Assembly: GCA_022821085.1 (NCBI GenBank)
Contig: JAJEEG010000006.1
Span: forward strand, 268,405 to 332,404
Length of the DNA: 64,000 nucleotides
DNA from: Candidatus Latescibacterota bacterium
GTDB lineage: Bacteria; JAAXHH01
Direction of reading: 5' to 3'
A program made the position numbers and the translations under genes. Every line of letters starts with the position of its first letter. Within the stretch, counting starts at the first letter, position 1. This document shows positions 27,788 through 57,543 of the stretch, one piece after another. The notes beneath the pieces were generated by a model, which was not told the DNA's origin, did no database searches, and was given only the letters and a program-made list of their open reading frames with translations.

Positions 27788-28711
27788 GTGCTACGCCACC
27801 TCGCCAGGCTGTTACTCTTTCTTGTATTTCTAGGCTGTGAGGGACCGACGGGTCCGGAGGGTCCGGCCGGACCGGCGGGGCAGGCCGGCGCCGCCGGTCC
27901 GCAGGGTATCCAGGGTCCGGCGGGACCGCAGGGCGAACCCGGGGAGACGCTGGACTGGTCGGACGTAATCGAGACCGAGAATCTGGGGGACGCGGTCTAC
28001 GCGATCGGGGTGCAGATCCAGGGGAAGAACTACGTGCTGGGTTCGGGTTTCGTCGCACACTTCACAAATGCCGTCTGGACCAATGCCCGCGTCGTTCAGG
28101 CCGTCCTCATTTCGACCACGTTTATCGACCACCTCAACCCGCGGGCCTTTGCCGTCAAGTCGGGCACGGAGATTGGCGGCGCCGACACGTACTGGCTGGA
28201 GAACTACTGGGTTCATCCCGACTACGACGGCACAGCCGGCTCGCCCGACGCGGCCCTGCTCATCATCGACGCGAACCTGACGGACCTGCCGTTCTTCCTG
28301 CCCAGGGACCAGGCCCAGGGCCTGCGCGCGGGACAGCCCATCGGTACGATCGGGTTTCCGGAGGAAGAAACGGGCGAGTCCGTCACGGTCCCCATCGCCA
28401 CGTTCAATGGCGGCACGATCGGCGCGCTGAGGCCCTTCGAAGACGCGGTCCCCACGCCGGCGAACAGCCGGATCATCCAGCATGACCTGGACAATTCCGG
28501 CCGAACGAGCGGCAGTCTCATTTTTGATCACTCGGGATACATCGTCGGGATGAATTTCGCCGGGATCTTCCGGGTCGCCTACGACGCCCGGACCGGGGAG
28601 CCCACGCGCGTTCCGTCGGGAAACCCCGGCCTCGCCGTCCGCGTGGACGAGCTCTGGCGCCTCTACGACCTGGCAAGGGGGAGTGGGCGCCAGGTCGTGC
28701 TACTTCCCTAG
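27788..28711 (+). CDS. lipoprotein with collagen-like stalk and trypsin-like (S1/Trypsin_2) domain, possibly non-canonical
   Basis: Lipobox LGCEG followed by about 35 residues of G-X-Y repeats. Then GSGFV...TNARVV (Arg where the catalytic His is expected), DAALLIID (Asp box) and GRTSGSLIF (Ser box). Confidence 0.65.
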   Translation: MLRHLARLLLFLVFLGCEGPTGPEGPAGPAGQAGAAGPQGIQGPAGPQGEPGETLDWSDVIETENLGDAVYAIGVQIQGKNYVLGSGFVAHFTNAVWTNARVVQAVLISTTFIDHLNPRAFAVKSGTEIGGADTYWLENYWVHPDYDGTAGSPDAALLIIDANLTDLPFFLPRDQAQGLRAGQPIGTIGFPEEETGESVTVPIATFNGGTIGALRPFEDAVPTPANSRIIQHDLDNSGRTSGSLIFDHSGYIVGMNFAGIFRVAYDARTGEPTRVPSGNPGLAVRVDELWRLYDLARGSGRQVVLLP

Positions 28712-29069
28712 CAGGACTTTCCGCACCTAGCCTTCAGATCCTACCCAGCCTTCAAACCCTTCCCGGATAGATGGAACGGCGAGGCGGAACTTTCGTAACA
28801 CAGGATTCCGGCCTGATCGCTAACGATCCGGAAGCGCTGGCGGTATGTGTTTGTGCCTTCCTCCCCTCCCATGCTCAAATAACCACATTTTAACCCCATA
28901 ACATCACGCTTAAATTATATGTCAAGGTATTGAAACAGATGATACCTGGCTATGGGTGATTTTATGTTGTAAATCCAAATATGATGCATACTTTGATCAT
29001 TCCACTTTGCAGAATGTTAGTCGAAAACTCGAATGTAATGCCGACCACACCGGTCCCGGGGAACGTCCT

Positions 29070-30968
29070 ATGAATATCCGTCCTTTGAAGCGTCTGTACA
29101 TAACGACCTTCTCAAGTTTCAGTACTGTATTTTTGATCACGGCCTGTCTGGTCCTGGTCACCTGCGGCAAGGACAGCACGACGAAGCCTGCGGCGCCTGA
29201 ACCGCCTCCGCCCGCAACACCCGCGCCGCCGCCCCCGGCGCCCGTACCTACCCGGATTACGATCACCCCTTCGTCCGTTTCGCTCAACTCCGTTGGCCAG
29301 ACCATGCCCTTGACGGCCAAGGTCTTCGATCAGAACAACGCGGTGCTCGGCAGTGCAACAGTTTCGTGGTCCAGCAGCGACGAGGGCGTGGCGACGGTCG
29401 GCAGCCGGGGGTTGGTCACCGCCGTCTCGAACGGTACGGCGACCATCACGGCGAGTTCAGGCATCGCTTCTGCGACCGCGGCCGTCACGGTGATGCAGTC
29501 CGCAAGCCGCATCGTCCTTGAGTCGTCCTCGGCAACGCTTGTGTCCCTCGGGGAAACCGTGCAACTCACCGCCACTGTGCAGGATGCGAACGGTCAAGCA
29601 GTAGACGGCGCGGCTGTAACCTGGTCGAGCAGCGACGAGGGCGTGGCGACAGTCGGCGCCCAGGGCTTGGTCACGGCAGTCTCGAACGGCAGCGCCACGA
29701 TCACGGCCAGATCGGGCAGCGTTTCTGCGACCGCGGCCGTCACGGTCATGCAAACCGCCCACGGAATCGTCCTTGAACCGCAGATGGCGACGCTCACCAG
29801 GGCCGGCGAGACCGTGCAGCTGGCCGCGGCCGTACTGGACCTGAACGAACAGCCCGTGGACGGCGCCACCGTCTCATGGGCCAGTAGCGACCCGGGCGTC
29901 GCGGCGGTCGACGATGATGGACTGGTGACGGCGGTTGCGAACGGCAGCGCCGGGATCACCGCGTCTTACGGCGACATATCCGCCACGGCCCGGATCGAAG
30001 TGGAGATCGCCGACCCGGGCGATAGAGACGCGTTGATTGCGCTGTATGTCGCCCTTGACGGACCGAACTGGACGTATAATACCAACTGGCTGTCCGACCT
30101 GCCTCTGGGTGAGTGGTATGGCGTGGGCACCGACGACACTGGAAGAGTCACCTGGCTGAGTCTCGCCTTCAACGAACTCAGCGGCGCCATTCCTTCGGAA
30201 CTGGGCAATCTGGCCAAACTGGAGGAACTCAATCTTAGCCAGAATCGGTTGTCGTGCGTGATTCCACCTGAATTGGGGAACCTGACCAACCTGTACGGGC
30301 TCTACCTTTACTCCATTCCGATCTTGCCGGCGGTCTTTCCGCCGGAGTGGGATCCTGTCCCCGACCCGGCTTGCCGCATCCCTGCCGAGTTGGGGAACCT
30401 GACCAACCTGGAGGAACTGAGGCTTGGCCTCAGAACGCTGTCTGGCCGCATTCCTGCCGAGTTGGGGAACCTGACCAACCTGCAGGTACTGGATCTCCGC
30501 TTCAACGCATTGTCCGGCGGCGTGCCGCCGGAACTGGGGAAGCTGCCCAACCTGTATTCGTTGAATCTCGGTTTCAACGCGTTATCTGGCAGCATCCCTG
30601 CCGAGTTGGGGAATCTGGCCAATCTGATGGAACTGAACCTGACCCTCAACGCGTTGTCGGGCAGCATCCCGCCTGAGTTGGGCAACCTGGCCGGCCTGGA
30701 AGTGCTGGAACTTGGCTTAAATGCGTTGTCCGGCAGTGTCCCGCCTGAGTTGGGAAACCTCTCCGAACTCACATATCTTTCTTTGGTTTACAATGAGGAC
30801 CTGTCGGGTCCGCTGCCCGCCACGTTCACCAACCTCAACTACCTGGAGGGGTTGGATCTGTCTTATACCGGCTTGTGCGTGCCGCCGGAACCTGCGTTCC
30901 GGGCGTGGCTGGAGCGGTTTCAGGCTGCCGATCAAGTGGTGTACTGCGGAGGGATGCAGGGCGGTTAA
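29070..30968 (+). CDS. Big_2 + LRR surface lipoprotein (paralog family)
   Basis: Start placed at the ATG (29070) that gives the signal peptide/lipobox LVTCGKDS. Pro-rich linker. Four Big_2 domains (VPTRITI...). About 9 LRRs. C-cap GLCVPPEPAFRAWLERF...C. Confidence 0.75.
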   Translation: MNIRPLKRLYITTFSSFSTVFLITACLVLVTCGKDSTTKPAAPEPPPPATPAPPPPAPVPTRITITPSSVSLNSVGQTMPLTAKVFDQNNAVLGSATVSWSSSDEGVATVGSRGLVTAVSNGTATITASSGIASATAAVTVMQSASRIVLESSSATLVSLGETVQLTATVQDANGQAVDGAAVTWSSSDEGVATVGAQGLVTAVSNGSATITARSGSVSATAAVTVMQTAHGIVLEPQMATLTRAGETVQLAAAVLDLNEQPVDGATVSWASSDPGVAAVDDDGLVTAVANGSAGITASYGDISATARIEVEIADPGDRDALIALYVALDGPNWTYNTNWLSDLPLGEWYGVGTDDTGRVTWLSLAFNELSGAIPSELGNLAKLEELNLSQNRLSCVIPPELGNLTNLYGLYLYSIPILPAVFPPEWDPVPDPACRIPAELGNLTNLEELRLGLRTLSGRIPAELGNLTNLQVLDLRFNALSGGVPPELGKLPNLYSLNLGFNALSGSIPAELGNLANLMELNLTLNALSGSIPPELGNLAGLEVLELGLNALSGSVPPELGNLSELTYLSLVYNEDLSGPLPATFTNLNYLEGLDLSYTGLCVPPEPAFRAWLERFQAADQVVYCGGMQGG

Positions 30969-32896: not shown

Positions 32897-33138
32897 CCTG
32901 CTAAGGTAGAATCTTAAGCGGCGACGAACAGTGTATGGCTAATCCCTACTGTTGAGTATTTCTCTGATGACCTGTATAATGATAGATATCTCGTCGGTAG
33001 CAATGCTGGATTTCCGAATGTAATCGTCCGGGGTCATGGGAACAAGTTGGAACCGCCAACCGTCTTGGAAGGTGATCCTCGACCGTCCCGCTTGAATCAG
33101 TCGTAAGGCAGATAACCTTTCTCGCATCGAGGTGTAGC

Positions 33139-33672
33139 ATGACAGAAAAACACCATACGGTCTATTCGCTGCTATCGATCCCCTTCGTGCCACTGCTTGC
33201 GGCTTTGTCGCTGGCAGTGGCGGGTTGTACGGAATCAGCGCAGGACGCACCGACGGCAGACGCTACACCCCCTGCCGCGCCTTCGCACGAGCCGGTCTAT
33301 CTCGTCTCGGAAACCACGGCGAGCATGAACCTGCCCTTCTCCGACGCCGTGCGCGTGGGGCACCTGCTGTTCCTCTCCGGCCAGATCGGAAACATCCCCG
33401 GTACGACGGACCTGGCGCCGGGCGGCATCCAGGGCGAGGCCCGCCAGACCATGGAGAACATCAAGGCGGTCCTGGAAGCCAACGGATCCACCATGGACCG
33501 GGTGTTCAAGGCCACGGTCATGCTGGCGGACATCGCCGAATGGCCCGCCTTCAACGAGGTGTACGTCACGTACTTCCCCGGCGACAAGCCGGCCCGCAGC
33601 GCCTTCGCCGGCAGCGGCCTGGCATTCGGCGCGCGGTGCGAGGTCGAGGTGATCGCCACGGTGGGCGAGTAG
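33139..33672 (+). CDS. RidA/YjgF/TdcF family protein with lipoprotein signal peptide
   Basis: Lipobox LAVAGCTE and a Pro/Ala linker, then the RidA fold signature (...GQIGNIPGT...ARSAFAG...). Confidence 0.75.
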   Translation: MTEKHHTVYSLLSIPFVPLLAALSLAVAGCTESAQDAPTADATPPAAPSHEPVYLVSETTASMNLPFSDAVRVGHLLFLSGQIGNIPGTTDLAPGGIQGEARQTMENIKAVLEANGSTMDRVFKATVMLADIAEWPAFNEVYVTYFPGDKPARSAFAGSGLAFGARCEVEVIATVGE

Positions 33673-33687
33673 GAAAGATCAATAGCC

Positions 33688-34122
33688 ATGGCTAAAGGCA
33701 AGTTCTGGCACGACGGATTGAAGTTCTCCTGCCACGGGTGCGGCCACTGCTGCACCTTCCCGGGTGGATTCATCTACGGCAGCGAGAAGGAGTTCCGGCG
33801 CATCGCCGAATACCTGGACCTGACCTTCGAAACCTTCCTGGAAAGGTACACGGAAGAGATCGACGGCTACGTCTCCCTGGTCTCTCCCAATGACGGTCCC
33901 TGCGTCTTCTACGACCAGGGATGTTCCATCTATCCGGTGCGGCCGTCCCAGTGCAGCAGCTATCCCTTCTGGCAGGACATCCTGAAGTCCAGGCGCCGGT
34001 GGGAACGTGAAGCGGAGACGTGCGGTGGCATGAACCGGGGGAAGCGCTGGACGCGCAAGGAGATCGAGGCGCAGGCGGCAAGCCGGACGGAGCACCTGAT
34101 GGAAGCAAAGAAGCGGGCGTAG
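33688..34122 (+). CDS. YkgJ-family cysteine-cluster protein (UPF0153)
   Basis: CHGCGHCC plus downstream Cys residues (CVFY, GCSIYPVRPSQCSSYPFW). SD upstream. Confidence 0.7.
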   Translation: MAKGKFWHDGLKFSCHGCGHCCTFPGGFIYGSEKEFRRIAEYLDLTFETFLERYTEEIDGYVSLVSPNDGPCVFYDQGCSIYPVRPSQCSSYPFWQDILKSRRRWEREAETCGGMNRGKRWTRKEIEAQAASRTEHLMEAKKRA

Positions 34123-34135
34123 GGAGTGCGGACAC

Positions 34136-35572
34136 ATGGATGAGGATATTCGGGAAGACGAGCGTGTTGATGGGCCGGGGTCGGCAGAGGCGGAAAGCGG
34201 ACCGGGCCGGCTGGACCGGCCGGACCGGCTGAATCGGCTGGACCGCCTGGACCGACGCACGTTCATCAGGGTGAGCGCCCTGGCCGGCATGGCCGGCGCG
34301 GCGGGCGTCGCCGCGTCCGGTTGCACTGGTGCGGGCGAGCAGGATGGATCATCGGAAGGTGGTGGCACGGGCGGTACGAGCGGTGCCGTTGGTACCGGCG
34401 GTTTGGGCGGTGACCCGGAGGCCCTGGCGGCCGACCTGAGGGACAACGTCTACACCCGGCTGCTGGGCGTACGGCCCCATGTCGGTGCCCACGAGCACCT
34501 CTCGAGCATGGGGGGCTCGCGCATGCCGGTCGAGGTAATGGAGGCCATGGCCGAGGCCAACCGCTATTTCGTGGACATGGCGGAACTGCACGACGCGGCG
34601 GGACGGCGCATCGCCGAGATCATGGGGGCGGAGGCCGCCCTGGTCTCGTCTGGCGCCTTCGCGTCGATGCTGGTGGGCGCGGCGGGCGTTTTGACCGGGT
34701 CCGACCAGGAACGGATGCGGCTCCTGCCCAATCCGACCTGGCCGAAGGTGGAGTGCCTGTTCCAGACCGCCCATCGCTTCTTCTACGACAACGTGTTCGG
34801 ATTCGCCGGCATGAAGCTGGTGGAGGTCGGCACCCGCGCGGAATACGAGGCGGCCATCACGGACCGGACGGCGCTGCTCGTGGGCCTGGCCTATATCGAG
34901 CACCAGACGCGGGGCGTCCCGCCCTTCCCCGTGCGCCACCGGCAGGAACACGATCCCGAGACGCTCATGCCCCTGGAGATCATCGAGATCGGCAAGCGCA
35001 GGGGGGTGCCGGTGATGATCGACCTGGCGTCCAACCTGCCGCCGAAGGAGAACCTGACGAAGTACCTGGAAGCCGGCGCCGACCTGGTCGTGGTCAGCGG
35101 CGGCAAGGGGATCCGCGGCCCGAACTCGACGGGGATCCTCGCGGGCCGCGCCGACCTGATCCACGCCGCCCGGATGCAGAACGCGCCGGTGAACGGCATC
35201 GGACGGGGACTGAAGGTCGGCAAGGAGGAGATCGTCGGCCTGGTCGCCGCGCTGGAGCGGTATGTAGCCCTCGACGAAGAAGAGGAGATCGCGGCCTGGA
35301 ACGAGAAGGCCCGCTGGCTGGCGGACCAGTTGCAGGGCATCGACGGCCTGGAAGCCCGCTACGAGCTCAACACCCACGGGTACTGCGACGTGGAACTGCT
35401 CTGGGACGAGGCGGTGATTCCCCTGTCCCGGGAAGACGTGGGCCGGCTGCTGCGCGCGGGCGATCCGAAGATTATCTATGACGGACCGGGTCCGCGAACG
35501 CTGCAGCTCGAGGAAGGCGAAGTCGAACTCGTGGCCCGCAGGCTGCGGGAACTGTTCACCACGGGAAGCTGA
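34136..35572 (+). CDS. SelA-like (fold type I) PLP-dependent enzyme with twin-arginine signal
   Basis: DRRTFIRVSALAGMAGAAGVAASGC is a Tat motif plus possible lipobox. VSGGKGIRGPNSTGILAG resembles the SelA PLP-lysine motif FSGDKLLGGPQAG. Confidence 0.6.
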   Translation: MDEDIREDERVDGPGSAEAESGPGRLDRPDRLNRLDRLDRRTFIRVSALAGMAGAAGVAASGCTGAGEQDGSSEGGGTGGTSGAVGTGGLGGDPEALAADLRDNVYTRLLGVRPHVGAHEHLSSMGGSRMPVEVMEAMAEANRYFVDMAELHDAAGRRIAEIMGAEAALVSSGAFASMLVGAAGVLTGSDQERMRLLPNPTWPKVECLFQTAHRFFYDNVFGFAGMKLVEVGTRAEYEAAITDRTALLVGLAYIEHQTRGVPPFPVRHRQEHDPETLMPLEIIEIGKRRGVPVMIDLASNLPPKENLTKYLEAGADLVVVSGGKGIRGPNSTGILAGRADLIHAARMQNAPVNGIGRGLKVGKEEIVGLVAALERYVALDEEEEIAAWNEKARWLADQLQGIDGLEARYELNTHGYCDVELLWDEAVIPLSREDVGRLLRAGDPKIIYDGPGPRTLQLEEGEVELVARRLRELFTTGS

Positions 35573-35592
35573 AGGATTCCGAAAGGACGGGC

Positions 35593-36804
35593 ATGGCCGA
35601 GGAAAACCCGAACGGACGCGGCACGCCTGGCGGTCCGCCGGCCGGTGACCGGTTGACCTACGAGGATTCCGGCGTGGATTACGACCGGATCGATCCCCTG
35701 AAGGTCCTCGCCCAGCAGGCGGCGCGGGCCACGGGGGCCAACCTCGAGCGCGCGGGTACGGGTGCCCGCGAGGTGGCGGCCAGCCGCGGCGAGTCGGCGT
35801 ACGTGTTGGACATCGGCGACGCGTACCTCGCCTCCATCACCGAATGCCTGGGCACCAAGGCCCTGGTGGCCGACGCGATGCGGAAGGGGCCGGCGGTATC
35901 GGGGGTGTCGGGGCCGCCCGAGGCGTCGGGACGGGAAGCGTCGGGACGGACCTGGTACGACCACATCGCGCAGGACACCATCGCCACGGCCGTCAACGAC
36001 CTCGTCACCGTAGGCGCCAAACCCCTGAGCATCCACGCCTACTGGGCCGCCGGTTCGTCGGACTGGTTCGACGACACCGAACGCATGAACGACCTGGTCG
36101 AGGGTTGGAGGGCGGCCTGCGACGTCCTGGGCGTGGCCTGGGGCGGCGGCGAGACGCCCTGCCTGACCGGCGTGGTGGAGGAAGGCGCCATCGACCTGGC
36201 CGCCTCCTGCGTGGGCATCATCCGGCCGAAGTCGCGCCTCACCCTGGGCGAGGACCTGGCCGCCGGCGACGCGATCGTCCTACTGGAAAGCAGCGGCATC
36301 CACGCCAACGGCCTCACCCTCGCCCGCAAGCTCGCCGAACGGTTGCCGGAGGGGTACGCCACGGTCATGCCCGGCGGCCGGACCTACGGTGAGGCCTTGC
36401 TCGACCCCACCGTGCTCTATCCGCCCGTCACCGAGGCGGCATTCGAGGCCGGCATCGGCCTGCGCTACGTCGCCAACATCACCGGCCACGGCTGGCGAAA
36501 GATCATGCGCCACCCCGGCCGGCTCACCTACCGCATTACCGAACTGCCCCCCGTTCCCGAGGTCCTGCGGTTCATGGTGGATGAGACCCGCCAGACCGCG
36601 GAAGAGGCCTACGGCAGCCTGAACATGGGCGCCGGCTTTGCCCTCTTCGTCCGCCCGGAGGATGGGGACGCGGCCGTGGCCTGCGCCGAGGCGCAAGGCA
36701 TCCGCGCCTGGGTTGCCGGCGTAGTGGAAGATGGCCCCCGCCAGGTGGTCATCGAGCCGCTGGGCGTGACGCTCAGTGGGGAAAGCCTGGCGCTGCGGGA
36801 CTGA
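35593..36804 (+). CDS. AIR-synthase-related (PurM-like) protein
   Basis: YEDSGVDYDRID N-terminal motif and overall PurM-like N-/C-domain layout (403 aa). Confidence 0.7.
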   Translation: MAEENPNGRGTPGGPPAGDRLTYEDSGVDYDRIDPLKVLAQQAARATGANLERAGTGAREVAASRGESAYVLDIGDAYLASITECLGTKALVADAMRKGPAVSGVSGPPEASGREASGRTWYDHIAQDTIATAVNDLVTVGAKPLSIHAYWAAGSSDWFDDTERMNDLVEGWRAACDVLGVAWGGGETPCLTGVVEEGAIDLAASCVGIIRPKSRLTLGEDLAAGDAIVLLESSGIHANGLTLARKLAERLPEGYATVMPGGRTYGEALLDPTVLYPPVTEAAFEAGIGLRYVANITGHGWRKIMRHPGRLTYRITELPPVPEVLRFMVDETRQTAEEAYGSLNMGAGFALFVRPEDGDAAVACAEAQGIRAWVAGVVEDGPRQVVIEPLGVTLSGESLALRD

Positions 36805-38485: not shown

Positions 38486-38737
38486 ATGACCGGAATGTCC
38501 CGCGAAAACTGGACCTTTGGCGCGCAGATCGTGTCGGCCATAGGCATCCTCGTAATCGCAGTCGTCACTTTCATCAATTCATCCAACAAGGAATTCCGGG
38601 ATGAGGTTCGGGCCGAGTTGACCGGATTGCGGACGGAAATGCAATCCGAATTCGCCTCCATACGTTCAGAGATGCACGATATGAACACGCGCCTCGGTCG
38701 CGTCGAAGGATACCTGCGTGTGTCCGTAAACGAATAG
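38486..38737 (+). CDS. small N-terminal-TM protein with HDMNTRLGRVEG motif (paralog family)
   Basis: 83 aa, about 85% identical to 36938..37177. Confidence 0.65.
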   Translation: MTGMSRENWTFGAQIVSAIGILVIAVVTFINSSNKEFRDEVRAELTGLRTEMQSEFASIRSEMHDMNTRLGRVEGYLRVSVNE

Positions 38738-38825: not shown

Positions 38826-39089
38826 ATGAGCGAACACAGCAAGAGAGATTGGTCATGGTCTCCGGTTATTACCATGGCCGGAATGCATATCATGATGACG
38901 GGTATCATCGTTACGATAATGCTCTTCTTAAATGGTGATCTTAGTAACAGGATGCTATCGGTAGAAGAGAAATTGAGAGACTTGATCGAGGTTGTATCGG
39001 GCATGCAGACCGAAATCGGTGCAATTAAACAGGAAGTGGATGTAATTAAACAGGAAGTGGATGAAATTAAACGGGAAGTGTCCAAATAG
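38826..39089 (+). CDS. small N-terminal-TM protein with heptad/11-mer repeats (divergent member of the family)
   Basis: 87 aa. TM (MTGIIVTIMLFL). C-terminal repeats IKQEVDVIKQEVDEIKREV. Confidence 0.5.
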   Translation: MSEHSKRDWSWSPVITMAGMHIMMTGIIVTIMLFLNGDLSNRMLSVEEKLRDLIEVVSGMQTEIGAIKQEVDVIKQEVDEIKREVSK

Positions 39090-39114
39090 AAATCAGTCAG
39101 GGAGAAATCGTTCC

Positions 39115-39519
39115 ATGGAAATCGCTCAACTGATCGTATCCCCGGCCATCTTGTTGGGAGCGTTCATTTTCTTCTGGAAAGAATCCAAGGCGGGTCGCAT
39201 GGAACTCGAGACCCGGCTGGTACAGCGCATGGATCGCATGGAGGACAGGCTGGAAGCGCGTTTTGTCGAGTCGGAAGCGCGCTTTGTCGCGCTGGAGGAC
39301 AAGATGGATAGACGCTTTATCGCGACTGATGCGCGCATTGTTGCGCTGGAAAACAAGATGGATAAACGCTTTGTCTCGTTGGAGGACAAGATGGATAAGC
39401 GCTTTGTCGCTCTGGAGGACAAGATGAACGAACGCATCGTCTCACTGGAGGACAAGATGGACGTTCGGGTTGGCCGACTGGAAGGGGTGCTGATTACTAC
39501 GCAGCAGAAGGCGTCTTGA
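39115..39519 (+). CDS. small N-terminal-TM protein with 11-residue repeats (ALEDKMDKRFV x6) and VGRLEGV tail
   Basis: ATG at 39115 is preceded by agggag. TM (IVSPAILLGAFIFFW). Repeats encoded by 33-bp DNA periodicity. Confidence 0.6.
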   Translation: MEIAQLIVSPAILLGAFIFFWKESKAGRMELETRLVQRMDRMEDRLEARFVESEARFVALEDKMDRRFIATDARIVALENKMDKRFVSLEDKMDKRFVALEDKMNERIVSLEDKMDVRVGRLEGVLITTQQKAS

Positions 39520-39527
39520 TTAACGTG

Positions 39528-41957
39528 CTACGGTCCGGAACAGAATTGCACACCGGAACTACTTCGTATACCGCTGATCCACGCCCGGAAATCCGCGGTC
39601 GGGGGTACACACAGGCCGGTGTTTTGCAGCGTCAGATCCTGCATGAACTCGAGCCCGGAAAACGAATCCGGCAATGGTCCGGATAGTCCGGGATTATCGG
39701 CGAGCCAGAGTAACCTGAGGCCGGTGAGTTGTCCCAGTTCGTCCGGGATCGTTCCGGTCAGCCGGTTATCGTCGAAGGTCAGCGACAACAGGTTGTTGAG
39801 TTTACCAAATTCCGGTGGGATTGTCCCGGACAGCCGGTTGTCCTTGAACCAGAGCTCCCTCAAGTTCGAAAGCTGTGCCAGTTCCGGCGGGATGTTCCCG
39901 GTCAGTTCGTTCCGGTCGAAATATAGCAATTCGAGCTTGGATAGCTGTCCCAGTTCCGGCGGAATGTTCCCGGTCAATATGTTCCGATTGAAATCCAGGA
40001 AGGTGAGCTCGGAGAGTTGAGCCAATTCCGGTGGTATGGGTCCCGTCAATCGATTTTTGGCAAGCGACAGATGGGTGAGTGCGGTGAGTTGGGCCAATTC
40101 CAACGGGATATCCCCCGTCAGCCTGTTGCTGCTGAGCCCCAGATGAGTAAGGTCAACGAGTTGCCCCAATTCCGGCGGAATGATTCCCGTCAGGTTGTTG
40201 CCTGTAAGCGTCAGGCGTTCAAGGGCGGTCAATTGTCCCAGTTCCGGCGGGATGTTCCCCGTCAACTCGTTTCCGGCAAGAGCAAGGACTGTCAGGTTCA
40301 CCAACTGCCCGATCTCCGGTGGAATATCTCCCGACAACTGGCTGTTGAGTATACTCAGCCAGGTAAGGTTGGTCAGTTGCCCGATTTCCGGCGGAATGTT
40401 CCCCGTCAGATCGGTGCTGTCGAGACTCAGAGTACCCAATTGGGTCAGTTGCCCCAGTTCCGGCGGGATCCCGCCCGTCAACCCGTTGCCGGACTGCCCC
40501 AGCCAGATGAGGTTGGCGAGCAGCCCGAATTCCGGTGGCAGGTTACCCGTCAGATCGTTGTACCTGAGGTCCAGCACGGCAAGCGAGGCGAGATAGCACA
40601 GTTCAGCGGGAAGGGGGCCCTGGAGATTGTTGCGCGGCAGTTGCAGGCGCACCACCTCTCCGGATGGAGTTGCGATGACGCCATGCCAGTCGCTAAGAGG
40701 TGCATCGCTTAACCAGTTGTCGTTGTTGGTCCATTCGTCCCCGTTCGTGCTGCGGTACAGGATCGCCAGGGCCTCGCGGTCCGGAACCGCTTCCTTCACA
40801 GTGACGGTCGCCACGGAAGTGGTCTCGCCTGAACGGGCGGTGATCTCCACGGTGCCGCCCGCAACGGCGGTCACCAGGCCCTGTTCATCGACCGTTGCGA
40901 TCGTTTCGTCACTGCTTGCCCAGGTCACGTCCGCGCCGTCTATCCTGTGCCCCATATGATCGAGTACCGTGGCCGTGAGCTGTGCCGTATCGCCGGCCGC
41001 CGCCAGGATCGTTTCCACCGGATCGACTACGATGCTGGCGGGCGACTGCATGACGGTAACGTCGCTGCTTACCGTTAGATCGCCTGAGGTGGCCGTGATG
41101 GTTGCGGCGCCGTTGGCCACCGCGGTCACGAGACCGTCAGTGCTCACCGTCGCCACGGAAGCGTCGCTGCTTTGCCAGGTCACGCCGGCCCCTTCGATGG
41201 CCCGGTTATTCGGATCGACCACCATTGCGATGAATTGGACGGTTTCGCCAAAGGCCGTGAGGGTGGCCTCAGGCGGATCGATCACGATACCGGTGGGCGT
41301 CTGCATGACCCTGACGGTGACGCCTTGCTCGGTACTGCCCGACCGGGCGGTTATCCTGGTTGTGCCGTTGCCTGTCGAGGTAACCAGTCCGGTAGTGCTC
41401 ACGCGTGCCACTTCCGTATCGCTGCTCCGCCAGGTCACGTTGGCCCCTTCGATCGTCTGCCCGTTGCGGTCCTGTACTGTTGCGGTGAGCTGCACCGTCT
41501 CCCCGATGGCCGTCAAGGTGGCCTCCGTGGGTTCGATGGTGATCCTGCCGGCGGTCTGTACCACTTTTATTTCAACATCTCGCGATACGCCGCCGGACCT
41601 CGCCGTAATGCGGATTATCCCGTACGCGACCGCCGTCGCCAGGCCGCCCGAACTGACCGACACGATCCTGGGGTCCGCACTGGTCCAGGTTACGGAAGCG
41701 CCTGTCATTACAGCGTTATTCTGATCGAAGACCTGGGCCGTCAGTTGGACCGTCTGGCCGATCGCGTTCAGCGTCGCCGAGGCCGGCGTGATGGTAATGC
41801 GGGTCGCAACCGGAGTCGGCGGCGGGGGCGGGGGCTGCGTCGGGGCCGGTGGCGACGGCGCGGGAGCGGTGGCGCTGTCCTTTCCGCAAGCGGCGATCAG
41901 CGCAATCAGCGTGCCGAATGCGAGCGCGGTAAAGGTATTCAACAGGATTCGTGACAC
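39528..41957 (-). CDS. Big_2 + LRR surface lipoprotein (paralog family)
   Basis: Lipobox LIAACGKDS and a Pro-rich linker. Five Big_2 domains (VATRITI...). About 12 LRRs. C-cap GLCVPPTADFRAWISGI...C. Confidence 0.8.
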   Translation of the reverse strand: MSRILLNTFTALAFGTLIALIAACGKDSATAPAPSPPAPTQPPPPPPTPVATRITITPASATLNAIGQTVQLTAQVFDQNNAVMTGASVTWTSADPRIVSVSSGGLATAVAYGIIRITARSGGVSRDVEIKVVQTAGRITIEPTEATLTAIGETVQLTATVQDRNGQTIEGANVTWRSSDTEVARVSTTGLVTSTGNGTTRITARSGSTEQGVTVRVMQTPTGIVIDPPEATLTAFGETVQFIAMVVDPNNRAIEGAGVTWQSSDASVATVSTDGLVTAVANGAATITATSGDLTVSSDVTVMQSPASIVVDPVETILAAAGDTAQLTATVLDHMGHRIDGADVTWASSDETIATVDEQGLVTAVAGGTVEITARSGETTSVATVTVKEAVPDREALAILYRSTNGDEWTNNDNWLSDAPLSDWHGVIATPSGEVVRLQLPRNNLQGPLPAELCYLASLAVLDLRYNDLTGNLPPEFGLLANLIWLGQSGNGLTGGIPPELGQLTQLGTLSLDSTDLTGNIPPEIGQLTNLTWLSILNSQLSGDIPPEIGQLVNLTVLALAGNELTGNIPPELGQLTALERLTLTGNNLTGIIPPELGQLVDLTHLGLSSNRLTGDIPLELAQLTALTHLSLAKNRLTGPIPPELAQLSELTFLDFNRNILTGNIPPELGQLSKLELLYFDRNELTGNIPPELAQLSNLRELWFKDNRLSGTIPPEFGKLNNLLSLTFDDNRLTGTIPDELGQLTGLRLLWLADNPGLSGPLPDSFSGLEFMQDLTLQNTGLCVPPTADFRAWISGIRSSSGVQFCSGP

Positions 41958-56289: not shown

Positions 56290-57543
56290 ATGTTGAACCG
56301 TATAAAGGAGACGGTCGATTCCGGCCTCTCCCGCCGCCGTTTTCTCACGGGAGCACTGGCCGCAGGCGCCGCGTTGACGCTGGCCGATCGTCTGGCCCTT
56401 GCCCAGACCATGGCTACGGGCGGCCTTACCGCCAAGGACATCCACGGGATCGGCGTCGAACCGGGTCTCGTCCGCATGGCGTTGAACGAGAATCCCATCG
56501 GACCGTCCCCGCGGGCGTTGGAAGCCATCGCCGAGAACATGTTCAAGATCAACCGGTATTCCTTCGGCGGCGGCGACATCTTCGGCGCGCTGGCCGAGTT
56601 CGACGGTCTGGAGCTGCCGCCCCCTCCCAGGTTCGGCGGTACGGGTCGTATGGGCGGTGGAGGCCGTTTCTTCAGGCAGACTCCGTTCTACATTACGGCG
56701 GGATCCGGCGCGCTCCTTTCCCAGATCGCGCTGACCTATCTGAGCAAGGGCGGCACCGAGGTCATCGAGGCCGATATGGGCTACGGCGACATTTCGGGTG
56801 ATGCCGAGAACTACCTGGAAGCCGGCCTCGACGTGAACATCATCCGCACGCCCATGAAGGACTACAAACACGACCTGGACGCCATGCTCGCGGCGATTAC
56901 CCCGAAGACGTCCGTGGTGGTCATCACCAATCCGAACAACCCGACCGGCACGCTGCTCTCCTTCGAAGAGACGGAGAAGTTCGTGGCCGCCGTGCCCGAG
57001 AACGTAATCGTGGTCATCGACGAGGCCTACATTCATTTCGTCCGGGATCCCCAGTACCAAACCGCGGCGTCGCTGACCAGGAAGTACGAAAACGTGATCG
57101 TCACCCGAACCTTTTCCAAGGTCTTCGGCATGCCGGGCATGCGCCTTGGATACGGGATCTGCAGCCAGGCCATCCAGGAGAAGCTGCGGTTCTACAGAAC
57201 AGGCAGCGCCAACGCCCTGGCCTACGCCGCGGGCGAGGCGTCCCTGAAGGATCGGAACCATTACGACCGTTCCCGGGCGGTCGTTCAACACTTCCGGGAC
57301 CGGCTGGAAGACGAATTCACGAAGATGGGGCTGGAGTACATCCCGTCCGAAAGCAATTTCATGATGGTCGACCTGGGCAAGCCGTCGATGAACATCATGC
57401 GGGAAATGTTCCAGAAGGGCGTCATGGTGACGAACCGGCGCAGGCAGCAGATGCCCACGTGGATCCGCGTATCCTCCGGCGACGAGCGGGAAACGGAAGT
57501 CTTCCTCAACGTGCTGAAAGAAGCTTTGGGCAAGACCAGCTAG
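56290..57543 (+). CDS. class I/II (HisC-like) PLP aminotransferase with twin-arginine signal peptide
   Basis: ATG at 56290 is preceded by agggag. SRRRFLTGALAAGAALTLA Tat motif. NENPIGP, NPNNPTG and FSKVFGMPGMRLGYG (PLP Lys) motifs. Confidence 0.75.
   Translation: MLNRIKETVDSGLSRRRFLTGALAAGAALTLADRLALAQTMATGGLTAKDIHGIGVEPGLVRMALNENPIGPSPRALEAIAENMFKINRYSFGGGDIFGALAEFDGLELPPPPRFGGTGRMGGGGRFFRQTPFYITAGSGALLSQIALTYLSKGGTEVIEADMGYGDISGDAENYLEAGLDVNIIRTPMKDYKHDLDAMLAAITPKTSVVVITNPNNPTGTLLSFEETEKFVAAVPENVIVVIDEAYIHFVRDPQYQTAASLTRKYENVIVTRTFSKVFGMPGMRLGYGICSQAIQEKLRFYRTGSANALAYAAGEASLKDRNHYDRSRAVVQHFRDRLEDEFTKMGLEYIPSESNFMMVDLGKPSMNIMREMFQKGVMVTNRRRQQMPTWIRVSSGDERETEVFLNVLKEALGKTS

What the first reader, a model, noticed from the sequence alone, without database searches (positions are those of the whole stretch)
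33139..36804. Exported PLP-enzyme cluster: lipoprotein RidA, YkgJ Cys-cluster protein, Tat-signal SelA-like enzyme, PurM-like protein
Four co-directional genes sit in a tight cluster. A RidA homolog carries a lipoprotein signal, whereas RidA is usually cytoplasmic. A SelA-like fold-type-I PLP enzyme carries a twin-arginine motif (DRRTFIRVSALAGMAGAAGVAASGC), so it would be exported folded. Next to them lie a YkgJ-type Cys-rich protein and a PurM-superfamily protein. A second Tat-signal PLP aminotransferase lies at 56290..57543. Together these point to amino-group chemistry carried out in the periplasm, with RidA as the imine/enamine scavenger. That compartment is unusual for such reactions. Pairing a SelA-like enzyme with a PurM/SelD-superfamily protein is also suggestive, although the N-terminus here is PurM-like and not SelD-like.
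Basis: partly seen in the sequence, partly recalled or inferred. Interest (0 to 1): 0.55.

Follow-up and report, generated by a model that had tools for sequence, protein, structure and literature searches.

The report
Exported PLP enzyme with exported RidA
A sponge/coral-type Gemmatimonadota bacterium has a tight four-gene operon in which a vitamin-B6 (PLP) enzyme and a RidA imine-hydrolysing protein both carry conserved export and lipid-anchor signals, so amino-acid deamination probably takes place outside the cytoplasm; the suggested selenium (SelA/SelD) link is not supported.

Summary
Four co-directional ORFs lie exactly at 33139-36804, separated by gaps of 15, 13 and 20 nt.

- **RidA:** it has a lipobox (VAG|C30), which is kept in 16/16 related loci.
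- **SelA-like protein:** it has RRTFIR, an uncharged h-region and a lipobox (ASG|C63). The Tat motif is present in 93 of 95 homologues that have an N-terminal extension, down to about 52% identity, so a misassigned start codon is excluded.
- **What the enzyme is:** it is neither SelA nor a DgaE orthologue. Its closest solved relatives are Cap15 (an O2/PLP monooxygenase-decarboxylase, 32% identity) and the DgaE lyase (27%). The PLP lysine and the carboxylate-binding arginine are invariant. DgaE's proton-donor histidines are not conserved, and a phosphate-site arginine is replaced by an invariant aspartate.
- **Gene linkage:** the four-gene block is confined to related lineages that also share wider synteny. 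59 of 61 distant SelA-like loci have no RidA, YkgJ or PurM-like gene nearby, and 79 of 80 exported-RidA metagenome loci have no SelA-like gene. However, RidA sits next to SelA-like genes in three different arrangements. Elsewhere, the same exported RidA type overlaps a Tat-signal aminotransferase.
- **PurM-like protein:** it is a divergent cytoplasmic member of the PurM family, not SelD.

Best reading: a periplasmic, membrane-tethered PLP deaminating enzyme working with RidA. This would be a new variant of Tat-exported PLP enzymes, of which PvdN and PtaA are the known examples.

The parts
32952..32980 (+). Candidate sigma-70-like promoter (TTGAGT-17-TATAAT) about 160 nt upstream of the RidA start. 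This is only a candidate.
   Evidence: 10/12 match, but about one such site is expected by chance in this region.
33139..33672 (+). RidA-subfamily protein (177 aa) with an N-terminal lipoprotein signal. Residues 1-29 form the signal, with lipobox V27-A28-G29-C30. Residues 31-52 are a Pro/Ala-rich linker, and residues ~53-177 are the Rid domain.
   Evidence: PF01042 at 95 bits; TIGR00004 at 101.6 bits against a cutoff of 106.25; it aligns with UK114/RidA deaminases; R153 corresponds to Arg105, the C-terminal E168/E170 motif is retained, and F67 sits at the Tyr17 position; the lipobox Cys is conserved in 16/16 clade loci.
33139..33228 (+). RidA signal peptide up to and including the lipobox Cys30 codon (33226-33228).
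   Evidence: Read directly from the sequence; conservation shown.
33688..34122 (+). YkgJ-type CxxCxxCC Cys-cluster protein (144 aa). It has no signal peptide and is predicted cytoplasmic. Its function is unknown.
   Evidence: PF03692 at 46.6 bits (cutoff 23); no hydrophobic N-terminus; 83-96% identical in 18 clade loci; it follows RidA in L088, L089, L091 and L092.
34136..35572 (+). SelA-related (DgaE/Cap15-clade) fold-type-I PLP enzyme of 478 aa with a Tat-type lipoprotein signal.
   Evidence: details in the report.
34136..34324 (+). Tat/lipoprotein signal of the PLP enzyme. Residues 1-38 are an acidic n-region, R40-R41 are encoded at 34253-34258 (motif DRRTFIR), residues 45-62 are an uncharged h-region, and the lipobox is A60-S61-G62-C63.
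   Evidence: RRxF[LIVMF] is present in 90/95 homologues and a looser Tat motif in 93/95; a lipobox-like Cys lies 8-40 aa after RR in 60. AF2 predicts a helix at residues 40-53 with disorder on both sides.
34207..34254 (+). A 9-bp tandem repeat (5.3 copies) that encodes the LDR/PDR repeats immediately before the twin arginines.
   Evidence: The length of the n-region varies between 24 and 58 aa among close homologues.
34325..34414 (+). Gly/Ser-rich disordered tether (residues 64-93) between the lipid anchor and the catalytic domain.
   Evidence: pLDDT <50 for residues 51-89. The region is low-complexity and varies in length among homologues.
34415..35569 (+). Catalytic domain (residues 94-478). 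The PLP lysine K324 (SGGK, nt 35105-35107), the carboxylate arginine R338, H213 and the family-invariant D418 all lie here.
   Evidence: pLDDT >90. Foldseek matches Cap15 8t7j (TM 0.86-0.88, 32% identity) and DGL 7lc0 (TM 0.83, 27% identity); column counts across 46 homologues.
35593..36804 (+). Divergent PurM-family (AIR-synthase-related) protein of 403 aa. It has no signal peptide and is predicted cytoplasmic.
   Evidence: AIRS + AIRS_C domains; TIGR00878 at 163.7 bits against a cutoff of 236.35; no SelD hit; the 18 best PDB matches are bona fide PurMs, at only 82-111 bits; the weakest hit, 3mdo at 37 bits, is a putative PurM. From the sequence: the DX4GAXP motif is present (NDLVTVGAKP), but TECLGTK and ITGHGW replace the canonical TDGVGTK and ITGGG.
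56290..57543 (+). A second, unlinked Tat-signal PLP enzyme: a HisC/PtaA-like class I/II aminotransferase with SRRRFLTG and an ALA|Q cleavage site.
   Evidence: PRK09105 at 231 bits (cutoff 444), hisC at 209 bits (cutoff 277), PtaA model at 183 bits (cutoff 500).

Best explanation
The locus is a co-transcribed operon of a sponge/coral-type Gemmatimonadota lineage. It encodes two extracytoplasmic, lipid-tethered proteins alongside two cytoplasmic ones.

The proposed mechanism runs as follows:
1. The 478-aa enzyme binds PLP and folds in the cytoplasm.
2. It is exported folded by the Tat pathway.
3. It is acylated at Cys63 and hangs on a roughly 30-residue Gly/Ser tether in the periplasm.
4. There it acts on an unphosphorylated alpha-amino acid, most likely a beta-hydroxy-alpha-amino acid or amino-sugar acid. 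The reaction is a PLP-only deaminating elimination and needs no soluble cosubstrate.
5. The enzyme lacks the proton-donor histidine that lets DgaE release an imine, so it is expected to release an enamine/imine.
6. The co-encoded RidA is exported by the Sec/lipoprotein route and acylated at Cys30. It hydrolyses that enamine/imine to the 2-oxo acid and ammonia, which are then taken up.

YkgJ and the PurM-like protein remain in the cytoplasm. Their connection to this chemistry has not been shown.

What is shown and what is inferred:
- Shown: gene anatomy, family and fold assignments, conservation of both signals, conservation of active-site residues, and the distribution of gene neighbourhoods.
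- Inferred: that export actually occurs, the reaction type, the substrate class, and that RidA acts on this enzyme's product.
For: **Anatomy.** Four ORFs are separated by gaps of 13-20 nt.

**Export.**
- The Tat motif is present in 93/95 homologues that have an N-terminal extension, across Gemmatimonadota, Acidobacteriota and Zixibacteria. The motif is followed by an uncharged h-region and a lipobox.
- The conserved MDEDIRE N-terminus shows the start codon is correct.
- In the AF2 model, residues 94-478 are folded and residues 1-89 are disordered apart from the h-region helix.
- The RidA lipobox is conserved in 16/16 clade loci.
- About 60 of 85 nearest RidA representatives have signal-like N-termini, and 32 have a lipobox.

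**Enzyme class.**
- The best solved relatives are Cap15 (8t7j) and DGL (7lc0).
- PLP lysine K324 and carboxylate arginine R338 are present in 46/46 homologues, and H213 in 43/46.
- DGL His162/163 are not conserved. DGL R301 (= Cap15 R322) is Asp in 45/46 homologues. The loop carrying R332 is absent. DGL residue roles come from PMC9529869.
- That paper shows that the H163A DGL mutant releases the enamine.

**RidA competence.** The equivalent of Arg105 is present. Its role is described in PMC4433059.

**Pairing.**
- RidA and the SelA-like gene are in the same operon in 16 clade loci.
- The order is RidA-YkgJ-PhyH-SelA-like in L088/L089/L092.
- RidA is followed directly by a SelA-like gene from a different subclade (51% identity to the window protein, 61% to Acidobacteriota-type proteins) in L087/L090.
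- A lipoprotein RidA is convergently adjacent in the Longimicrobiales locus L038.
- The same exported RidA type overlaps a Tat-signal HisC-like aminotransferase in two other lineages.

**Precedents.**
- PvdN and PtaA are Tat-exported PLP enzymes (PMC6206403).
- OngC/OngD is a deaminase plus an essential RidA (PMC9537276).
Against: - No experiment exists, and no dedicated signal-peptide predictor was available.
- Starting from the SelA-like gene, 59 of 61 loci outside the close clade have no RidA within 10 kb. That is roughly the background expectation for a multi-copy family.
- Starting from RidA, 79 of 80 exported-RidA metagenome loci have no SelA-like gene (57 of them have at least 1.5 kb of flank). 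Their commonest neighbour is a GMC flavoprotein (13 loci). This RidA therefore has partners other than the SelA-like enzyme.
- The L088 lineage shares wider synteny with the window (ACS-like gene, thiolase), so part of the conserved gene order may simply be inherited.
- The closest characterised relative, Cap15, is an O2-dependent monooxygenase-decarboxylase. Its reaction releases no free enamine.
- The invariant Asp418 hints at a cationic substrate group that this model does not explain.
- F67 replaces RidA Tyr17.
Confidence: 0.45

Rival explanations
1. The compartment is the same but the chemistry differs. Under this reading the enzyme is an O2- and PLP-dependent oxidase or oxygenase, like Cap15 and like periplasmic PvdN. 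It would carry out oxidative decarboxylation to a carboxamide, or oxidative deamination, using only O2, which is available in the periplasm. RidA would matter only if an imine is released.
For: - Cap15 is the best match by both sequence and structure: 138 bits against 94 for DGL, and 32% identity with TM 0.86-0.88.
- PvdN, the established Tat-exported PLP enzyme, belongs to the same reaction class (PMC7497351).
- A Tat-signal class-V (SufS/PvdN-like) enzyme is the commonest neighbour of distant family members, in 11/61 loci.
- DGL's catalytic His pair is missing.
Against: - Cap15 activity depends on phosphate (PMC6384614). The arginine shared by Cap15 and DGL at that site is an invariant Asp in this family.
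- A carboxamide-forming reaction gives RidA no substrate.
- The best NCBIfam model is the DgaE lyase family.
- No determinants of O2 reactivity are known that could be checked in the sequence.
Confidence: 0.25
2. The operon is a mosaic. Both RidA and the PLP enzyme are exported, but they work independently, and the adjacency of all four genes is lineage-inherited synteny with no shared function. The PurM-like protein would then be simply this lineage's AIR synthetase.
For: - The four-gene block occurs only in L001-L019 and the related L088/L018 lineage.
- That lineage also keeps the ACS-like and thiolase genes in the same order.
- 59/61 distant SelA-like loci lack all three partner genes, and 79/80 RidA loci lack a SelA-like gene.
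- PurM-like homologues at 64-67% identity in other phyla sit in unrelated contexts.
- IMG and some NCBI records name the PurM-like protein purM.
Against: - The flanks on both sides change while the block persists.
- RidA is found next to two different SelA-like subclades, and in three different orientations or spacings.
- Both proteins independently acquired lipid-anchor signals with flexible tethers.
- The exported RidA is paired with another Tat-exported PLP enzyme in other bacteria.
Confidence: 0.25
3. All four genes, plus PhyH and PALP in relatives, form a single pathway. Cytoplasmic steps would be carried out by the YkgJ metal-cluster protein and by an ATP-dependent PurM-like paralogue. 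These would make or consume the compound that the PLP enzyme and RidA handle in the periplasm.
For: - The gene pairs survive rearrangements. SelA-like and PurM-like stay together in L018 without RidA or YkgJ. RidA and YkgJ stay together in L091 and L089.
- The PurM-like protein scores only 82-111 bits against every solved PurM, falls below the TIGR00878 cutoff, and has altered motifs. This suggests a paralogue.
- PGAP names several members 'AIR synthase-related protein'.
- PhyH and PALP genes recur beside it.
Against: - The proteins sit in different compartments.
- No chemistry is known that links these families.
- L087/L090 keep RidA and SelA-like without the other two genes.
- Distant PurM-like genes lack a SelA-like neighbour.
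- Wider synteny offers a simpler explanation.
Confidence: 0.12
4. The cluster is a selenium-related SelA/SelD-like system, as the first reader tentatively suggested.
For: Only the Pfam SelA hit (40 bits over 161 of 367 model positions) and the fact that PurM and SelD share a superfamily.
Against: - TIGR00474 selA scores 43.6 bits against a cutoff of 267.9.
- There is no N-terminal tRNA-binding domain. Structural similarity to SelA reaches only TM 0.5-0.6 at 19-20% identity.
- The enzyme is exported and so is separated from tRNA.
- The PurM-like protein hits the purM, sll0787, hypE, thiL and purL models but not selD.
- All its PDB relatives are PurMs.
Confidence: 0.02
5. The signal peptides are artefacts of wrong start codons, and the proteins are cytoplasmic.
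For: The 38-residue acidic stretch before the RR motif is unusually long for a Tat n-region.
Against: - ATG 34136 is the only standard start codon upstream of the catalytic domain in this frame, and it has a GGAG motif 9 nt upstream.
- The MDEDIRE start and the RR motif are conserved across dozens of independent assemblies.
- 93/95 homologues carry the motif.
- The RidA lipobox is conserved in 16/16 loci.
Confidence: 0.04

Closest known systems
PvdN and PtaA (periplasmic PLP enzymes of pyoverdine tailoring in Pseudomonas)
   Same: Both are fold-type-I PLP enzymes that bind PLP in the cytoplasm and are exported folded by the Tat pathway (PMC6206403). The window's second enzyme (56290-57543) belongs to PtaA's own HisC-like family.
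   Different: The operon enzyme belongs to another subfamily, the SelA-related DgaE/Cap15 clade. It carries a lipobox, so it would be a tethered lipoprotein. It sits in no siderophore context, is paired with an exported RidA, and occurs in Gemmatimonadota and Acidobacteriota.
Cap15 (PDB 8t7j), the O2- and PLP-dependent monooxygenase-decarboxylase of capuramycin biosynthesis
   Same: It is the closest solved relative (32% identity, TM 0.86-0.88). The PLP lysine, the carboxylate arginine and His213 are shared. Its substrate is a beta-hydroxy-alpha-amino acid.
   Different: Cap15 is cytoplasmic, phosphate-dependent and encoded in an antibiotic gene cluster. The arginine it shares with DGL (R322) is an invariant Asp in this family. 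The family also has a 14-residue insertion.
[quoted passage not shown]
   Same: It is the best-scoring curated family (TIGR01437) and has the same fold (TM 0.83). It catalyses a beta-elimination on a beta-hydroxy-alpha-amino acid that yields an enamine/imine product.
   Different: The window protein scores far below the cutoffs (152 against 385 bits; equivalog 132 against 600). His162/163 are not conserved. Two of the three arginines of the phosphate-binding cluster are replaced or deleted. It is exported, and it sits in no PTS or aldolase context.
RidA with a PLP-dependent deaminase (IlvA/RidA paradigm; OngC/OngD in oxidised-chitin catabolism)
   Same: A RidA-subfamily protein with the catalytic arginine is encoded beside a PLP enzyme that is expected to release an enamine/imine.
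   Different: All described pairs are cytoplasmic. Here RidA carries a lipoprotein signal and belongs to a large exported subfamily with the motif LPFSEAVRVG, in which Phe replaces Tyr17. The Rid family survey PMC4433059 does not mention such a subfamily.
SelA (selenocysteine synthase)
   Same: It shares a distant fold-type-I core and the SGxK lysine motif.
   Different: The window protein has no tRNA-binding N-terminal domain, shares only 19-20% identity, scores below the cutoff and is exported.
PurM (AIR synthetase)
   Same: It has the two AIRS domains and the DX4GAXP ATP motif, and all its PDB relatives are PurMs.
   Different: It scores below the curated cutoff, has an insert of about 25 residues, and has changed motifs (TECLGTK, ITGHGW). 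It is roughly equidistant from bacterial, archaeal and human PurMs. It may be a paralogue.

Membership tests
Tat (twin-arginine) signal peptide | An S/T-R-R-x-F-L-K-like motif followed by a weakly hydrophobic, uncharged h-region and a cleavage site. | tested here: met
   DRRTFIR at residues 39-45, h-region VSALAGMAGAAGVAASG, then lipobox Cys63. A looser Tat motif is conserved in 93/95 homologues and RRxF[LIVMF] in 90/95.
Tat (twin-arginine) signal peptide | Actual Tat-dependent export of the folded, cofactor-loaded protein. | not testable with these tools
   This needs reporter fusions, a tatC mutant and an RR-to-KK variant.
Bacterial lipoprotein (SPase II) signal | A [LVI][ASTVI][GAS]C lipobox at the end of the h-region. 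| tested here: met
   In RidA the lipobox is V-A-G-C30, conserved in 16/16 loci. In the PLP enzyme it is A-S-G-C63, with a non-canonical Ala at position -3. A lipobox-like Cys is present in 60/95 homologues and throughout the close clade. Acylation cannot be tested here.
SelA, L-seryl-tRNA(Sec) selenium transferase (TIGR00474) | A full-length match above the curated cutoff and an N-terminal tRNA-binding domain. | tested here: not met
   The score is 43.6 bits against a cutoff of 267.9, covering model positions 181-346 only. Foldseek similarity to SelA is TM 0.5-0.6 at 19-20% identity.
[quoted passage not shown] | A score above cutoff, the strictly conserved His162-His163 pair, and the Arg301/332/346 phosphate-binding cluster. 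| tested here: not met
   The score is 132 bits against a cutoff of 600. The His pair is variable. R301 is Asp in 45/46 homologues. The R332 loop is absent. The R346 column is ambiguous.
DgaE family / SelA-related PLP enzymes (TIGR01437 subfamily; includes Cap15) | The fold, the SGxK PLP lysine and the carboxylate arginine. | tested here: inconclusive
   The HMM score is 151.7 bits, below the cutoff of 385.3. However, it is the best-scoring family, the match is full-length, the fold matches 8t7j and 7lc0 at TM 0.83-0.88, and K324 and R338 are invariant. The protein is a member of the wider clade but of neither characterised group.
RidA subfamily (TIGR00004) | A score above cutoff, and the equivalents of Arg105, Glu120 and Tyr17. 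| tested here: inconclusive
   The score is 101.6 bits against a cutoff of 106.25. R153 (PARS motif) and the C-terminal ExE motif are present. Tyr17 is replaced by F67. Deaminase activity was not tested.
YkgJ / CxxCxxCC (PF03692) | A Pfam score above the gathering threshold, and the Cys cluster. | tested here: met
   The score is 46.6 bits against a threshold of 23. The motif CHGCGHCC is present.
PurM, AIR synthetase (TIGR00878) | A score above the curated cutoff over the full model. | tested here: not met
   The score is 163.7 bits against a cutoff of 236.35, covering model positions 73-331 only. The PDB PurMs score 82-111 bits. Whether the genome has another purM could not be tested.
SelD, selenophosphate synthetase | A match to the SelD model, and the N-terminal Cys/Sec-Lys motif. 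| tested here: not met
   No selD hit at E<=0.01, although purM, hypE, thiL and purL are all listed. The N-terminus reads LTYEDSGVDYDRIDPLK, which is PurM-like.
PtaA, periplasmic transaminase (NF051461), tested for the gene at 56290-57543 | A score above cutoff. | tested here: not met
   The score is 182.6 bits against a cutoff of 500. The protein has the same HisC-like family membership and a Tat signal, but it is not an orthologue.

The most novel reading that the evidence does not exclude
Gemmatimonadota and Acidobacteriota may possess a previously undescribed extracytoplasmic amino-acid deamination or oxidation system. Its components would be a large family of Tat-exported, often lipid-anchored SelA-related PLP enzymes that use only PLP (and possibly O2), and a widespread exported RidA subfamily that serves as a dedicated periplasmic enamine/imine deaminase. 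That RidA would serve several periplasmic enzymes: SelA-like enzymes, PtaA-like aminotransferases and GMC flavoproteins. If so, reactive-imine control would exist outside the cytoplasm, and nitrogen could be scavenged from amino compounds without importing them first.
Probability: 0.25. Interest if true: 0.7.

Novelty: new variant of a known kind. Interest (0 to 1): 0.5.

Why it matters
Tat-exported PLP enzymes are so far known mainly from pyoverdine tailoring (PvdN, PtaA). RidA biology has been framed entirely as protection of cytoplasmic or organellar PLP enzymes.

If this reading is right, there is a third and much larger Tat-exported PLP family, with more than 2,000 clusters at 90% identity. 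Its nearest characterised relatives perform unusual chemistry: O2-dependent PLP oxygenation and sugar-acid deamination. There is also an exported RidA subfamily found across very diverse bacteria.

That makes a concrete question testable: what do PLP enzymes and RidA do in the periplasm of abundant soil, marine and sponge-associated phyla? The answer may point to a cofactor-autonomous route for obtaining ammonia and keto acids from external amino compounds.

The finding does not establish a new pathway. The four-gene cluster as a whole is not shown to be a functional unit.

Tried and rejected
- **Selenium reading:** rejected on the family models and on fold.
- **Start-codon artefact:** rejected on conservation.
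- **DgaE orthology:** rejected on score and on active-site columns. A first attempt at residue mapping with mafft --keeplength shifted the numbering and was discarded; it was redone.
- **Conserved partners of the SelA-like gene across 80 genomes:** none is universal.
- **Conserved partners of the exported RidA across 80 metagenome loci:** a SelA-like gene was found in only one.
- **Context of distant PurM-like homologues:** three look-ups found no SelA-like gene.
- **Close RidA homologue search:** it returned only the near clade and gave no distant contexts.
- **Literature searches:** searches for DgaE, SelA-like, 8T7J, exported Rid proteins and YkgJ found no description of this family or of an exported RidA. 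The Cap15 PNAS paper is not held.
- **AlphaFold-database fold search:** unavailable.
- **Promoter and terminator scan:** uninformative.

Full report
**1. What is in the sequence.** The ORF table reproduces the finding exactly. The four ORFs are 33139-33672 (177 aa), 33688-34122 (144 aa), 34136-35572 (478 aa) and 35593-36804 (403 aa), all on the + strand with gaps of 15, 13 and 20 nt. All four have the high third-position GC of real genes in this 60-69% GC region. GAGG, GGAG and AGGA motifs lie 5-9 nt upstream of the RidA, PLP-enzyme and PurM-like starts, and an AGGAAAG lies about 11 nt upstream of the YkgJ start. The next gene upstream is a lipoprotein gene on the opposite strand. Downstream of the block there are about 650 nt without a convincing gene. 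The four genes therefore look like one transcription unit. A promoter-like site at 32952-32980 is no better than chance.

The family scans gave the following results.

| ORF | Best Pfam match | Best NCBIfam match |
|---|---|---|
| 33139-33672 | PF01042 | TIGR00004 RidA subfamily, 101.6 bits (cutoff 106.25) |
| 33688-34122 | PF03692 CxxCxxCC/YkgJ, above threshold | none |
| 34136-35572 | PF03841 SelA, partial | TIGR01437 DgaE family, 151.7 bits (cutoff 385) |
| 35593-36804 | AIRS + AIRS_C | TIGR00878 purM, 163.7 bits (cutoff 236) |

No SelD model matched the fourth protein.

**2. Organism.** Homologues with names and the record titles of related loci are Gemmatimonadota MAGs, largely from sponge and coral metagenomes. 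A few are labelled Latescibacterota. The window also holds Big_2-LRR lipoproteins and collagen-like lipoproteins, which suit such symbionts.

**3. Neither holds.

- ATG 34136 is the only standard start codon upstream in this frame.
- The N-terminus MDEDIRE... is itself conserved in dozens of independent assemblies.
- Among 95 homologues with at least 25 residues ahead of the conserved core, 93 carry a Tat motif and 90 carry the strict RRxF[LIVMF]. These homologues range down to about 52% identity and span Gemmatimonadales, Longimicrobiales, Vicinamibacteria, Bryobacterales and Zixibacteria. 60 have a lipobox-like Cys 8-40 residues after the RR.
- An AlphaFold model built on 46 homologues (mean pLDDT 84) folds residues 94-478 with high confidence. 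Residues 1-36 and 51-89 are disordered, and the only structured element before the domain is a helix at residues 40-53, which is the h-region. This is the anatomy of a signal, a Gly/Ser tether and a catalytic domain.
- In RidA, the lipobox V-A-G-C30 is followed by a Pro/Ala-rich linker. The lipobox Cys is present in all 16 related loci that carry the gene, although the linker varies greatly in length.
- Of about 45 genes in the window, only two have a twin-arginine motif followed by a hydrophobic stretch. They are the operon enzyme and the aminotransferase at 56290-57543, and both are PLP enzymes.

No dedicated predictor (SignalP, TatP) was available, and export itself is inferred.

**4. What the PLP enzyme is.** It is not SelA. 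TIGR00474 scores 43.6 bits against a cutoff of 267.9 and matches only the core, there is no tRNA-binding N-domain, and Foldseek similarity to SelA structures is TM 0.5-0.6 at 19-20% identity.

The closest solved relatives are:
- **8t7j** (138 bits; 32% identity; TM 0.86-0.88 normalised on the target). The PDB describes it as the oxygen- and PLP-dependent Cap15 holoenzyme.

Cap15 converts the beta-hydroxy-alpha-amino acid glycyluridine into a carboxamide using O2, and it needs phosphate (PMC6384614, PMC7497351). DGL eliminates water and ammonia from another beta-hydroxy-alpha-amino acid. In DGL, His163 protonates C3, so that the imine rather than the enamine is released; the H163A mutant releases the enamine. 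Arg226 is modelled at the carboxylate, and Arg301/332/346 at the phosphate (PMC9529869).

I added both sequences to the 46-member family alignment and counted the key columns.

| Position | State in the family |
|---|---|
| SGxK lysine (K324) | 46/46 |
| Carboxylate arginine (R338) | 46/46 |
| His shared with DGL and Cap15 (H213) | 43/46 |
| DGL His162/163 | variable; they fall inside a 14-residue family-specific insertion |
| DGL Arg301 = Cap15 Arg322 | Asp in 45/46, Glu in 1 |
| Arg332 loop | absent |
| Arg346 column | ambiguous |

The family is therefore an alpha-amino-acid PLP enzyme of the DgaE/Cap15 clade and an orthologue of neither characterised member. It has lost most of the phosphate site, which fits a compartment without phosphorylated sugars. 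It has also lost the residue that prevents enamine release in DGL.

One caveat concerns numbering. The paper calls the catalytic lysine Lys-217, whereas in the numbering of the PDB chain the SGAK lysine is 213. I rely on the motif, not on the number.

**5. What the RidA is.** It aligns end to end with UK114/RidA imine deaminases (E about 1e-24). It keeps the arginine that is essential for activity (R153 in PARS; its role is given in PMC4433059) and the C-terminal acidic motif. It has Phe where RidA has Tyr17.

A full-library search shows this is typical of a large subfamily. Of the 85 best single-domain cluster representatives, about 60 have a hydrophobic signal-like N-terminus and 32 have a lipobox. 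All share the motif LPFSEAVRVG. The main comparative paper on the Rid family contains no occurrence of 'signal peptide', 'periplasm' or 'lipoprotein', and my literature searches found no description of exported RidA.

**6. Is the cluster a functional unit?**

*Starting from the PLP enzyme.* In 80 species-level genomes, RidA, YkgJ and the PurM-like gene lie beside it only in L001-L019, where the PLP enzyme is at least 62% identical to the window's. An HMM for the exported RidA finds it in 16 of those loci. In the other 61 loci it finds RidA only in L038 (adjacent and convergent, with a lipobox-like N-terminus) and in L049 (5 kb away). The commonest neighbour in the distant loci is a divergently transcribed class-V PLP enzyme of the SufS/PvdN type with a Tat signal (11/61). 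After that come S9 peptidases, amidohydrolases and TonB-type receptors.

*Starting from RidA.* A 52% GC lineage (L087, L090) has RidA followed 160 nt later by a Tat-signal SelA-like gene, with no YkgJ or PurM-like gene. That RidA is 72-80% identical to the window clade's. The PLP enzyme, however, is only 51% identical to the window's and is closest (61%) to the Acidobacteriota-type subgroup. A 53% GC lineage (L088, L089, L092) has the order RidA-YkgJ-PhyH-SelA-like-PurM-like-PALP. Its relative L018 keeps only SelA-like and PurM-like, next to an ABC transporter. L091 keeps RidA and YkgJ.

*Cautions.* L088 also shares the ACS-like gene and the thiolase with the window, in the same order. Part of the gene order is therefore ancestral backbone, with symbiont-specific genes inserted. 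A metagenome scan for the exported RidA type returned 80 loci (49-73% identity, GC 37-74%). Only one of them, an L088-type contig, has a SelA-like or YkgJ gene. 57 of the 80 have at least 1.5 kb of flank.

*Recurrent RidA neighbours in those loci.* A GMC flavoprotein oxidoreductase lies just upstream on the same strand in 13 loci. An S9 peptidase recurs in 7. In two lineages (5 loci), a HisC-like aminotransferase with a TRRQWL/TRRQML Tat signal starts 15 nt before the RidA stop.

*My reading.* The exported RidA is a general periplasmic protein that different lineages couple to different exported enzymes. Two of those partner types are Tat-exported PLP enzymes. The RidA-SelA-like link is real but lineage-restricted. 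The YkgJ and PurM-like links may be inherited synteny.

**7. The PurM-like protein and YkgJ.** Neither has a signal peptide.

The PurM-like protein has the ATP-binding DX4GAXP motif, and its 18 best PDB hits are bona fide PurMs; the nineteenth and weakest, 3mdo at 37 bits, is a putative PurM. However, these PurMs score only 82-111 bits whether they are bacterial, archaeal or human. The protein falls below the purM cutoff, carries an insert of about 25 residues, and has TECLGTK and ITGHGW where PurMs have TDGVGTK and ITGGG. Homologues of 369 aa at 64-69% identity occur in other phyla (for example Binatia) in unrelated contexts, with PhyH and PALP genes recurring nearby. Sources name them either purM or 'AIR synthase-related protein'. 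I could not determine whether these genomes have another purM. It may be the housekeeping enzyme or a paralogue, and I regard the two as about equally likely. Nothing ties it to SelD.

YkgJ-type proteins have no assigned function in the papers I could search.

**8. Mechanism.** The most coherent model has six steps.
1. The enzyme acquires PLP in the cytoplasm.
2. It is exported folded by the Tat pathway, as shown for PvdN and PtaA (PMC6206403).
3. It is lipidated and tethered by a flexible linker.
4. It carries out a cosubstrate-free deaminating elimination on an unphosphorylated alpha-amino acid.
5. Lacking the His163 equivalent, it releases an enamine/imine.
6. The lipid-tethered RidA hydrolyses that product.

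A deaminase with an essential RidA partner is known in the cytoplasm: OngC/OngD act on D-glucosaminate (PMC9537276). The main chemical rival is an O2-dependent Cap15/PvdN-type reaction, which would also suit the periplasm but would give RidA less to do. Substrate identity is open. The invariant Asp418 that replaces a phosphate-binding arginine suggests either a neutral or a cationic distal group.

**9. Comparison and novelty.**

Known:
- Tat-exported PLP enzymes (PvdN in the class-V family; PtaA in the HisC-like family).
- Lyase/RidA pairs.
- DgaE and Cap15 chemistry.

New here:
- A large uncharacterised clade of Tat-signal SelA-related enzymes. More than 2,000 clusters have E<=1e-10.
- Lipoprotein anchoring of this enzyme.
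- A widespread exported RidA subfamily.
- The co-encoding of the enzyme with that RidA.

I class this as a new variant of a known kind. The four-gene 'cluster' as a single pathway, and the selenium hint, are not supported.

**10. Verdict.**
- Observation: confirmed.
- Interpretation: partly supported.
- Interest: 0.5. A specialist in PLP enzymes or in RidA would find the exported families noteworthy and directly testable. However, there is precedent for the compartment, the functional coupling rests on limited comparative evidence, and the substrate is unknown.

Noticed in passing
window 34207-34254: A 9-bp tandem repeat (5.3 copies, CCGGCTGGA) encodes the LDR/PDR repeats of the unusually long acidic n-region just before the twin arginines. 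The n-region length varies between 24 and 58 aa among close homologues, which suggests changes in repeat number.
   Followed up: partly
window 56290-57543: A HisC/PtaA-like class I/II aminotransferase has a clear Tat signal (SRRRFLTG ... ALA|Q). It scores below the cutoffs for hisC, PRK09105 and PtaA. A cytoplasmic HisC-like paralogue lies at 60667-61716, and a class-III aminotransferase at 61788-63083.
   Followed up: partly
L149, L150, L154, L160 (RidA ~61%) and L159: In two other lineages, the exported-type RidA is translationally coupled to a Tat-signal HisC-like aminotransferase (TRRQWL / TRRQML), with the two genes overlapping by 15 nt. This is an independent pairing of an exported RidA with a Tat-exported PLP enzyme.
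   Followed up: partly
L116, L117, L123-L125, L136, L138, L141, L155, L158, L162, L166, L171: The commonest neighbour of the exported RidA subfamily in metagenomes is a GMC-family FAD oxidoreductase. It lies about 126 nt upstream on the same strand, in 13 of 80 loci.
   Followed up: partly
L021, L030, L033, L040, L045, L048, L051, L065, L067, L069, L078: A Tat-signal class-V (SufS/PvdN-like) PLP enzyme is divergently transcribed about 300 nt from the Tat-signal SelA-like gene in 11 of 61 distant loci. These loci therefore carry two exported PLP enzymes side by side.
   Followed up: partly
L011, L012, L065, L067, L069, L074: The Tat-signal SelA-like gene is duplicated in tandem, in two Gemmatimonadota-clade loci and four Bryobacterales loci.
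   Followed up: no
window 9811-10713(-), 10782-14390(-), 27788-28711, 28956-30968, 39528-41957(-): There are several predicted lipoproteins with Big_2 + leucine-rich repeats or with collagen-like GPxG repeats. They lie in stretches of lower GC (0.53-0.57) than the surrounding 0.62-0.69. This is the 'eukaryote-like protein' pattern typical of sponge and coral symbionts. These genes separate blocks that are adjacent in the relative L088.
   Followed up: partly
window 17132-17521(-), 38486-38737, 38826-39089, 39061-39519, 50939-51268: At least five small paralogous proteins are scattered through the window. Each has one N-terminal transmembrane helix followed by coiled-coil repeats (for example RFVALEDKMDKRF). 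Homologues recur downstream of the operon in related loci. Their function is unknown.
   Followed up: no
proteins P0242, P0244-P0247 and others: Many relatives of the RidA are proteins of about 400 aa that contain three Rid domains in tandem.
   Followed up: no
window 35593-36804; L088 8653-9762; context of P0215 and P0235: The divergent PurM-like family (TECLGTK / ITGHGW motifs, 64-69% identical across phyla) repeatedly has PhyH-family dioxygenase genes and PALP (fold-type-II PLP) genes next to it. It may be an uncharacterised PurM paralogue.
   Followed up: partly
window 42505-43704(-) and 43815-46481(-): A ManD/D-galactonate-dehydratase-family enolase (407 bits to the ManD model, below the cutoff of 550) and a secreted M14 carboxypeptidase-like protein lie downstream. 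The dehydratase is syntenic in 12 of 19 clade loci.
   Followed up: no
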